DNA from: a virus
Reading direction: 5' to 3' (one strand)
IMG/VR virus record: IMGVR_UViG_3300028840_005911
Coordinates: 64,001-128,000 of that record
DNA length: 64,000 bases
Shown: piece after piece, positions 30,563-30,726 of the stretch
Numbering within the stretch: position 1 is the first letter of the stretch
How the letters are laid out: each line of letters opens with the position of its first letter
Translations under genes and position numbers: made by a program
The notes under the pieces: model-generated
What the model was told of the DNA's origin: nothing
The model's input: the letters and a program-made list of their open reading frames with translations, nothing else
Database searches by the model: none

Positions 30563-30726
30563 GATTGGCTGGGAGTACGAGGGGTATATGGGATGGTAGT
30601 GAGATCTGACGTGTGAGCGGATGTCGTCTGGCTCGTACGGAGGGTTGGTCGGGAACGCGGACGTGGGCGAGAATGAATTCTGAGCCGAAGGAGTTCATGG
30701 AGGAGGGCTATATGCCCTCTTCTTAC
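30563..30726 (+). ncRNA. (GNNN)n array F plus terminator hairpin
   Basis: G at 25/29 in-phase positions 30563-30675; hairpin GAGGAGGGC/GCCCTCTTC-TTAC. Confidence 0.78.

What the first reader, a model, noticed from the sequence alone, without database searches (positions are those of the whole stretch)
30563..30726. Array F: GNNN tract preceded by an operator palindrome
GATT GGCT GGGA GTAC GAGG GGTA TATG GGAT GGTA GTGA GATC TGAC GTGT GAGC GGAT GTCG TCTG GCTC... (25/29). Three of the four exceptions are T at exact 20-nt spacing (30587, 30607, 30627), hinting at 5-unit guide modules. The upstream TCCAACAGGTCTGTTGGA can also fold as a 5' hairpin in RNA.
Basis: seen in the sequence. Interest (0 to 1): 0.75.

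Follow-up and report, generated by a model that had tools for sequence, protein, structure and literature searches.

The report
Four-base-period guide-like phage RNA tail
The tail of an early phage transcript has a G at every fourth base for 29 units. The same kind of tract lies beside a lone CRISPR-type (Cas7-like) protein in several unrelated phages, so it is probably the RNA partner of a four-base-step relative of the newly described VIPR systems; the proposed 20-base modules are not supported.

Summary
At 30563-30678, 25 of 29 four-base units start with G (0 of 200,000 permutations reach this). It is one of only five such tracts in the 192-kb phage genome, all on the + strand within 6 kb.

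Array F is the 3' tail of a two-gene early transcript: promoter with operator, two small ORFs, a perfect 18-nt palindrome, the tract, a hairpin, then a terminator-like hairpin.

ORF 19436-20692 folds as a PadR-like winged helix plus a Cas7/RAMP domain. Three of four independent contigs carrying homologues (under 40% identity) have same-strand period-4 G tracts close to the gene. One has a tandem array whose tracts each end in a conserved hairpin, like published vrRNA arrays.

My best reading (about 0.55) is a VIPR-like RNA partner with a 4-nt step; published VIPR RNAs have 5-nt repeats.

Not supported: the 20-nt "module" idea. I found no super-period, no target and no orthologue. Profile comparison with SUSP1 Vipr shows no sequence homology.

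The palindrome is one of five exact copies clustered in 2.1 kb, mostly inside promoters, so it is most likely a DNA operator. It would also form an RNA hairpin.

Other follow-ups of this scan reached a similar reading for sister arrays and for one other genome.

The parts
30127..30156 (+). Promoter of the transcript that carries Array F. It has a -35-like GTAAAAT, an operator palindrome in the spacer (30133-30150) and the GGTATAAG element.
   Evidence: There are 18 genome copies of GGTATAAG, most with a shared upstream GTAAAAT-like element. Palindrome copies are listed.
30205..30393 (+). Small ORF (62 aa) with a strong ribosome-binding site. No family match.
30397..30540 (+). Small ORF (47 aa) with a hydrophobic N-terminus. 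Its stop codon abuts the palindrome.
30541..30558 (.). Perfect 18-nt palindrome (7-nt arms, 4-nt centre). It is probably a DNA operator copy without a functional -10 element, and it also forms a 7-bp RNA hairpin at the 5' edge of the tract.
30563..30678 (+). Array F proper: 29 GNNN units, 25 of them starting with G. The NNN content is unique.
30673..30698 (+). Pre-terminator hairpin with a 9-bp stem.
30699..30726 (+). Terminator-like hairpin with a purine-rich 5' arm (still in G phase), ending in the ...CTTCTTAC sequence shared by neighbouring units.
   Evidence: family D3
19436..20692 (+). Candidate protein partner: a PadR-like winged helix (about residues 12-100) fused to a Cas7/RAMP domain (about residues 149-360).
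26901..27040 (+). Sister tract (Array B), 35 units, the 3' tail after ORF 26639-26881.
29610..29701 (+). Sister tract (Array C), 23 units, starting in the stop codon of ORF 29258-29611.
30909..31164 (+). Sister tract (Array E), 64 units, in a dedicated non-coding unit. It has its own promoter and operator (30745-30789), and a UUCG-loop hairpin sits just before the tract.
32035..32174 (+). Sister tract (Array G), 35 units, the 3' tail after the sigma-region-4 gene and a small ORF.

Best explanation
Array F is the non-coding 3' tail of an early bicistronic phage transcript. It is one of five RNA tracts in this phage written in four-base units, each with a fixed G and three free bases. The most likely reader is the phage's own winged-helix/Cas7-like protein (ORF 19436-20692).

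Inferred mechanism: protomers polymerise along the RNA with a 4-nt step, each pocketing the G (U is tolerated, C is not) and exposing the free bases. The filament would then recognise a nucleic-acid target through a gapped code, as VIPR Vipr-vrRNA filaments do with 5-nt units. The palindrome in front of the tract is a DNA operator copy. In the RNA it also gives a stable hairpin that could mark the 5' boundary of the tract.

Shown here: the lattice, its transcript context, the RAMP fold, and the co-occurrence of homologues with such lattices.

Inferred only: binding, step size, guide function and target.
For: 1. The lattice is real and rare.
2. It lies between a stop codon and a terminator-like hairpin on the transcribed strand, as do tracts B, C and G, and nothing supports coding in it: the ORFs overlapping it have no family match, and a 4-nt period does not fit a triplet code.
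3. ORF 19436-20692 gives a confident model (pLDDT 83.7). Residues 149-360 match Csm3/Cmr4/Cas7-11 (Foldseek E about 1e-6; VIA Z 11.8 and 10.3). Residues 12-100 match PadR-type winged helices.
4. The family has 88 representatives. Of four independent contigs I could fetch, three carry same-strand period-4 G tracts:
   - L001/L002: seven tracts directly after the gene, most followed by a conserved hairpin tail.
   - L006: tracts on both flanks of the gene, and nowhere else in its 68 kb at the 15-unit threshold.
   - L003/L004: weaker tracts (at most 15 of 20 units) from about 0.4 kb downstream and at 5-7 kb, several preceded by a conserved hairpin.
5. Position-specific composition is shared across the four lineages: position 1 is 77-88% G, positions 2-3 are A-rich and C-poor, and position 4 differs. 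The exceptions at position 1 are T 43, A 33, C 6.
6. The NNN content is unique to each tract, with 53 of 64 triplets used.
7. VIPR gives a tested precedent: a phage RAMP that polymerises on a tandem-repeat RNA.
Against: - No binding or expression data exist.
- In this phage the gene lies 6-12 kb from the tracts, not adjacent.
- One homologue-bearing contig (L005/L007, a 137-kb fragment, 65% complete) has no tract.
- Profile-profile comparison with a SUSP1-type Vipr alignment finds no homology (probability 0.5%).
- No target was found in the phage genome under nine pairing rules or with three seeds against public collections.
- The tracts have 23-66 units, much longer than the published 9-16 repeats.
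- C depletion at positions 2-3 would restrict a free guide code.
- This phage has no conserved 3' tail beyond ordinary-looking terminator hairpins.
Confidence: 0.55

Rival explanations
1. The RAMP protein does bind the tracts, but they are not guides. They could be scaffolds, sinks or cis-regulatory tails. For example, filament assembly on the 3' UTR could stabilise or silence the early mRNAs, or titrate the winged-helix repressor, with no sequence-specific target.
For: - The tracts are very long and are attached to mRNAs.
- No target was found.
- The free positions are compositionally biased, not random.
- The winged-helix fusion gives DNA binding without a guide.
Against: - The NNN content is diverse and unique to each tract, although a pure scaffold could be a simple repeat.
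- In L001 the tracts form a separate array of about 120-nt units with a conserved tail, like vrRNA arrays.
- The target searches had very low power because the host is unknown.
Confidence: 0.2
2. The lattice is read by something other than the RAMP protein. It could be a host or phage RNA-binding protein with a 4-nt register acting as a stability, anti-termination or sequestration element, or a DNA-level signal. The nearby RAMP genes would then be coincidental.
For: - The gene and the tracts are not adjacent in this phage.
- One homologue contig lacks tracts.
- There is no sequence homology to Vipr.
- TRAP-type proteins show that phased G/U triplets can be read by unrelated folds.
Against: - Tracts sit directly beside the gene in L001 and L006 and close to it in L003, on the same strand, in lineages under 40% identical.
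- In L006 the only tracts in 68 kb flank the gene.
- Strand asymmetry and placement inside transcripts argue against a DNA signal.
Confidence: 0.12
3. Array F is built of 5-unit (20-nt) guide modules punctuated by T, and is processed into a 20-nt ladder.
For: - Three T exceptions lie exactly 20 nt apart.
- Array E also has exceptions at 30925 and 30945, 20 nt apart.
Against: - No excess of 5-unit gaps or of pairs 5 or 10 units apart across 17 arrays.
- No 5-unit super-period in composition (p = 0.26 in F, 0.12 pooled).
- The fourth exception breaks the series.
- The first T exception is part of a 7-of-8 match to the phage's -10 element, which is another possible reason for it.
Confidence: 0.05
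4. Chance, a compositional artefact or an unrecognised coding region.
For: The region is G-rich, and ORFs of 53-70 aa overlap it.
Against: - 0 of 200,000 permutations reach the observed count.
- Five tracts are seen against 0-1 in local shuffles.
- A 4-nt period is incompatible with a triplet code.
- The overlapping ORFs have no family match.
Confidence: 0.01

Closest known systems
VIPR systems (Vipr RAMP protein + vrRNA; bioRxiv 10.64898/2026.04.26.720920 and 10.64898/2026.04.26.720927)
   Same: - Phage-encoded, with a lone RAMP-fold protein outside any CRISPR locus.
- Non-coding RNAs made of short tandem units, with conserved G position(s) and hypervariable positions.
- Several RNAs per phage.
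- In relative L001, a tandem array after the gene with a conserved structured tail after most of its tracts.
   Different: - The unit is 4 nt (one fixed G), not 5 nt (GGY/NN, or the NNNGG, YNNNG and NNNNG variants).
- Tracts have 23-66 units, not 9-16.
- The protein is twice as long, with a fused N-terminal winged helix; in VIPR the DNA-binding Vap is a separate protein.
- In this phage the tracts are dispersed as 3' tails of early mRNAs, 6-12 kb from the gene.
- There is no detectable sequence homology to SUSP1-type Vipr.
- No target and no pairing rule are known.
Cas7 backbone filaments of class 1 CRISPR effectors (Csm3, Cmr4, Cas7-11, type IV Csf2)
   Same: The Cas7/RAMP fold of residues 149-360. 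In principle, protomers step along an RNA and take one base out of the helix at a fixed period.
   Different: The CRISPR period is 6 nt and the RNA is a repeat-spacer product. Here no CRISPR array or other cas genes were seen, and the protein matches no curated Cas family.
TRAP binding sites in Bacillus trp leader RNA (phased (G/U)AG triplets)
   Same: A phased purine or G/U signal in an unstructured RNA, read by a protein multimer. G and U are interchangeable, and C is excluded.
   Different: TRAP reads 9-11 triplets with 2-3 nt spacers and a three-base motif, using an unrelated fold. Here only one base per four is fixed and the tracts are far longer.

Membership tests
VIPR system | Stand-alone RAMP-fold protein encoded by a phage, outside a CRISPR-Cas locus | tested here: met
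   Cas7/RAMP fold in a 192-kb virus record (header). No Cas family was hit in Pfam or NCBIfam. Rfam finds no CRISPR repeat in the window. Absence of cas genes was not checked exhaustively.
VIPR system | Protein belongs to the Vipr clade (found by PSI-BLAST from X1U2U4; placed in the Vipr phylogeny) | tested here: inconclusive
   hhalign of the 64-sequence family alignment against a 32-sequence SUSP1-type Vipr alignment gives probability 0.5%, and tblastn against phage records finds nothing. In BFVD, the best viral fold matches are lone RAMP proteins of 194-252 aa (E 6e-8 to 5e-6), about the length of the 195-aa SUSP1 Vipr, but I could not confirm their identity. No Vipr structure was available to compare.
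VIPR system | vrRNA made of 5-nt tandem units (YNNGG or NNNGG, YNNNG, NNNNG) | tested here: not met
   The period is 4, and there is no period-5 signal in the tract or around the gene. As a control, the same kind of scan finds the YNNGG arrays flanking the SUSP1 genes.
VIPR system | Repeat tract followed by an invariant structured 3' tail | tested here: inconclusive
   Met in relative L001, where a conserved hairpin follows most tracts. In this phage, only terminator-like hairpins of the phage's general type follow the tracts.
VIPR system | RNA co-purifies with the protein, and the filament binds dsDNA by the 1-nt-skip code | not testable with these tools
   In silico only: there is no match above shuffled controls in the phage's own genome under nine rules, and three skip-1 seeds gave no hit in viral or prokaryote collections.
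Class 1 CRISPR-Cas effector | CRISPR repeat-spacer array and accompanying cas genes | tested here: not met
   No CRISPR repeat family was found by Rfam. The repeat search over 26.8-32.4 kb shows only promoter, operator and terminator families. Other large ORFs of the window give no Cas domains.
TRAP-type phased triplet site | (G/U)AG triplets separated by 2-3 nt | tested here: not met
   Only position 1 is fixed. Positions 2-4 use 53 of 64 triplets.

The most novel reading that the evidence does not exclude
A second register of RAMP-guided recognition. A winged-helix/Cas7 fusion would polymerise on RNAs written in 4-nt units (one anchored G plus free bases), embedded in the 3' tails of early phage mRNAs. 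It would use them as very long gapped guides against DNA of the host or of competing elements. The clustered operator would tie guide production to a phage repressor circuit. The pairing code would differ from both CRISPR (5+1) and VIPR (2+1 on a 5-nt unit).
Probability: 0.3. Interest if true: 0.85.

Novelty: new variant of a known kind. Interest (0 to 1): 0.68.

Why it matters
VIPR showed in 2026 that lone phage RAMP proteins read tandem-repeat RNAs and recognise DNA through a gapped code. All published variants, and a large language-model survey of periodic intergenic arrays (periods 60-79, 18 and 5 nt, with a few at 10, 8 and 7), use 5-nt units for this class.

A family with a 4-nt unit, a fused DNA-binding domain and tracts of up to 66 units would show that the step size of RAMP filaments is evolvable. 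It would imply a different recognition code. It would also offer a second programmable scaffold that can be tested with the same assays: pull-down, reporter repression and cryo-EM.

Array F adds the cleanest case of a tract bounded by a 5' hairpin/operator and 3' hairpins, which makes it a convenient minimal construct.

Tried and rejected
- Rfam at gathering threshold over the window, and at E up to 1 over 29.7-32.9 kb: nothing but tRNAs.
- blastn of 26.5-33.5 kb and tblastn of the RAMP protein against 50,697 phage records: no match.
- Searches for relatives of the phage in viral contigs: the neighbouring sigma-region-4 protein found none. The operator-plus-promoter DNA pattern gave two hits with no similarity to this genome and no tracts, so they are chance matches.
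- Searches for RAMP homologues: the closest-homologue alignments found none in viral contigs or prokaryote genomes.
The contigs of the closest homologues (P0002, P0003, P0004) therefore could not be fetched, and the orthologue test of the T exceptions could not be run.
- L001 and L002 differ by only two bases in the array region, and L003 and L004 are identical, so there is no variation to compare between copies.
- Single-sequence fold of the protein: useless (pLDDT 40).
- Self-targeting under NNN, positions 2-3 or positions 3-4 with 0-2 skipped bases: no score above shuffled guides.
- Three skip-1 seeds from Array F against viral and prokaryote collections: no hits. Skip-0 and two-base rules were not tried on public collections.
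- An internal promoter for Array F: there is a 7-of-8 match to the -10 element at 30582-30589, but no -35-like element at the right distance. I judge it unlikely.
- The coding reading of overlapping ORFs is rejected.

Full report
**The observation.**
- Units of four bases starting at 30563 begin with G in 25 of the first 29 cases. The exceptions are at 30587, 30607, 30627 (all T) and 30655 (A).
- G makes up 44% of the segment, yet 0 of 200,000 permutations reach 25 in-phase G in any phase.
- Periods 2, 3, 5 and 6 show nothing comparable, and no other base forms such tracts on either strand of the window.
- In the whole 192,446-bp genome, only five tracts reach 16 of 20 units. All are on the + strand, at window 26897-27060, 29602-29709, 30559-30710, 30897-31172 and 32023-32198. 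Local shuffles give 0-1.
- Pooled over the five tracts, position 1 is 87% G. Positions 2 and 3 are C-poor (15% each), and position 4 is close to background.

**Anatomy of Array F**.
- A promoter of the phage's own consensus lies at 30127-30156: a GTAAAAT-like element, a 15-17-nt spacer, then GGTATAAG followed by a conserved GTG. GGTATAAG itself occurs 18 times in the genome.
- Two small ORFs with good ribosome-binding sites follow (30205-30393 and 30397-30540).
- The stop codon of the second ORF abuts a perfect 18-nt palindrome (30541-30558).
- Four bases later the tract starts (30563-30678).
- A 9-bp hairpin follows (30673-30698), then a 10-bp terminator-like hairpin (30699-30723) ending in the CTTCTTAC sequence shared by neighbouring units (family D3).
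- The next promoter follows at once.

Array F is therefore the 3' tail of an early bicistronic transcript, as tracts B, C and G are for theirs. Array E is a dedicated non-coding unit. ORFs overlapping the tract have no family match, and a 4-nt period cannot be a coding signal. Rfam finds nothing.

**The palindrome.**
- The core (five bases, four free, five bases) occurs exactly eight times in the genome, against about 0.2 expected (my estimate). Five exact copies and one single-mismatch copy lie within 2.2 kb around arrays F, E and G.
- Two copies sit in the spacer of consensus promoters (30149 and 31212). One overlaps the -35-like element of Array E's promoter (30782).
- The half-sites are conserved in sequence rather than by compensating changes, and some copies lie upstream of transcription starts. 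Both facts favour a DNA operator.
- The Array F copy is the most perfect one. It keeps a -35-like flank but has lost the -10 element (2 of 8 matches). It could therefore be a promoter relic kept as a binding site, perhaps a roadblock in front of the tract. That is inference.
- Once transcribed it is also a stable hairpin.
- Array E likewise has a UUCG-loop hairpin directly before its tract, and the L003 tracts are preceded by a conserved hairpin. A 5' boundary hairpin may therefore matter at the RNA level too.
- I cannot tell which protein binds the operator. Candidates are the winged helix of the RAMP protein and the sigma-region-4 protein at 31264-31773.

**The candidate reader.** The lead came from earlier notes of this scan, and I re-tested it.
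- ORF 19436-20692 (418 aa) has no Pfam, PHROG or NCBIfam match.
- It has 88 representatives in a 1.84-billion-protein library.
- With a 64-sequence alignment, the model reaches pLDDT 83.7.
- Residues 149-360 match Cas7-type RAMPs: Foldseek gives Csm3, type VII Cas7 and Cas7-11 at E about 1e-6, and VIA gives Z 11.8 to a Cmr subunit and 10.3 to Csm3.
- Residues 12-100 match PadR-type winged helices (Z 9.9; profile E 0.005).
- The family's most conserved motif, SPARG followed by a further invariant glycine, lies near the C-terminal end of the RAMP domain. I take it to be the counterpart of the RAMP glycine-rich loop, but I did not check this against the model.

**Co-occurrence.** I could fetch four independent contigs that encode homologues 30-42% identical to the alignment queries used to find them.
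- L001/L002 (metagenome): seven period-4 G tracts begin at the gene's stop codon. Most are followed by the same conserved tail and hairpin, giving units of roughly 120 nt. This is the layout of published vrRNA arrays.
- L006: tracts lie on both flanks of the gene. At a threshold of 15 units with two mismatches, these are the only tracts in its 68-kb record.
- L003/L004: weaker tracts (at most 15 of 20 units) lie about 0.4 kb downstream and 5-7 kb further on, several preceded by a conserved hairpin.
- L005/L007: a 137-kb fragment with no tract.

Position-specific composition is the same in all four lineages: G at position 1, A-rich and C-poor at positions 2-3, and a different profile at position 4. 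Exceptions at position 1 are T 43, A 33 and C 6. Tolerating U while excluding C fits recognition of the RNA base rather than of DNA, though this is inference. The free bases share nothing between tracts, apart from one 14-nt match between arrays C and F, and use 53 of 64 triplets.

**Comparison with what is known.** VIPR systems are phage RAMP proteins that polymerise on vrRNAs of 9-16 YNNGG units plus a conserved 3' tail. They bind dsDNA through the NN bases, skipping one target base per unit. The variants listed are NNNGG, YNNNG and NNNNG, all 5-nt. A later survey of 376 million intergenic regions found periodic arrays at 60-79, 18 and 5 nt, with a few at 10, 8 and 7 nt, and none at 4 nt.

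I located the SUSP1 locus by its YNNGG arrays and built a 32-sequence Vipr alignment. Comparing it with the present family gave no detectable homology (probability 0.5%). RAMP families are known to be too divergent for sequence methods, so this neither proves nor excludes common descent. The best viral fold matches are lone RAMP proteins of 194-252 aa, about the length of the 195-aa SUSP1 Vipr.

The system thus works like VIPR in outline but fails the 5-nt criterion. It also differs in protein architecture (fused winged helix), in tract length, and, in this phage, in being dispersed as mRNA tails 6-12 kb from the gene. I file it as a new variant of that kind, not as a member.

**The module idea.** The 20-nt spacing of the three T exceptions is real. 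However:
- Two equal successive gaps arise in about a quarter of random placements.
- Across 17 arrays, a gap of 5 units is seen 8 times against 5.5 expected, and pairs 5 or 10 units apart are at expectation.
- No super-period of 2-6 units is detectable in Array F or pooled.
- The first T belongs to a 7-of-8 match to the -10 consensus, which may be chance.

**Targets.** No match above shuffled guides exists in the phage's own genome under nine rules: all three free bases, positions 2-3, or positions 3-4, each with 0-2 skipped target bases. Three skip-1 seeds from Array F found nothing in IMG/VR or in 185,579 prokaryote genomes. The host is unknown and the searches needed exact seeds, so the power was low.

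**Limits.**
The orthologue test is therefore open.
- There is no expression or binding evidence.

Other follow-ups in this scan reached a similar reading for sister arrays of this genome and for one other genome. One of them, on Array G, found no evidence for guides. I treated all of these as leads and re-ran the fold, co-occurrence and target tests myself.

Noticed in passing
window 29768-30120: A promoter-to-terminator unit of about 330 nt has no convincing ORF and no G lattice, so it is possibly another non-coding RNA. It contains an exact 15-nt copy (29808-29822) of a sequence inside ORF 27838-28554 (28462-28476).
   Followed up: no
window 32236-32800: After Array G's terminator come two more palindrome copies (32236 and 32321). 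A non-coding stretch of about 400 nt follows, rich in G and T with recurring GGTGTAT-like words. It has no period-4 signal and ends in a hairpin near 32790.
   Followed up: no
window 16423-31212 and elsewhere (genome-wide list): The phage-specific promoter consensus is a GTAAAAT-like element, a 15-17-nt spacer, GGTATAAG, then GTG about 4 nt later. The GGTATAAG core occurs 18 times, and most copies share this context. Eleven lie on the + strand between window 16.4 and 31.2 kb, each preceded by a terminator-like hairpin, which suggests an early region made of many short units.
   Followed up: partly
window 31264-31773: A 169-aa protein contains only a sigma-70 region 4 helix-turn-helix (Pfam E 1.6e-10; PHROG sigma factor). 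It is expressed from an operator-bearing promoter and is followed by Array G. It could be the operator-binding factor or an RNA polymerase modifier.
   Followed up: partly
window 23921-23998: Rfam calls a second tRNA here (50.8 bits) that ARAGORN does not report.
   Followed up: no
window 30582-30589: GGTATATG inside Array F matches the -10 consensus at 7 of 8 positions and contains the first T exception. It lies 23 nt after the palindrome, similar to the 21-nt distance at Array E's promoter, but there is no -35-like element.
   Followed up: partly
window 29637-29650 and 30646-30659: Arrays C and F share a 14-nt stretch in the same G phase (13 of 14 identical). This is the only similarity between any two tracts, and it may be chance.
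   Followed up: no
L001:3137-4120: A relative's locus is a compact model of the system. The RAMP gene is followed directly by about seven period-4 tracts, most followed by a conserved tail of about 45 nt with a GC-rich hairpin.
   Followed up: partly
genome positions 171195, 181358 and 188414 (beyond the window): Three further exact copies of the palindrome core lie far from the array region, apparently inside coding sequence.
   Followed up: no
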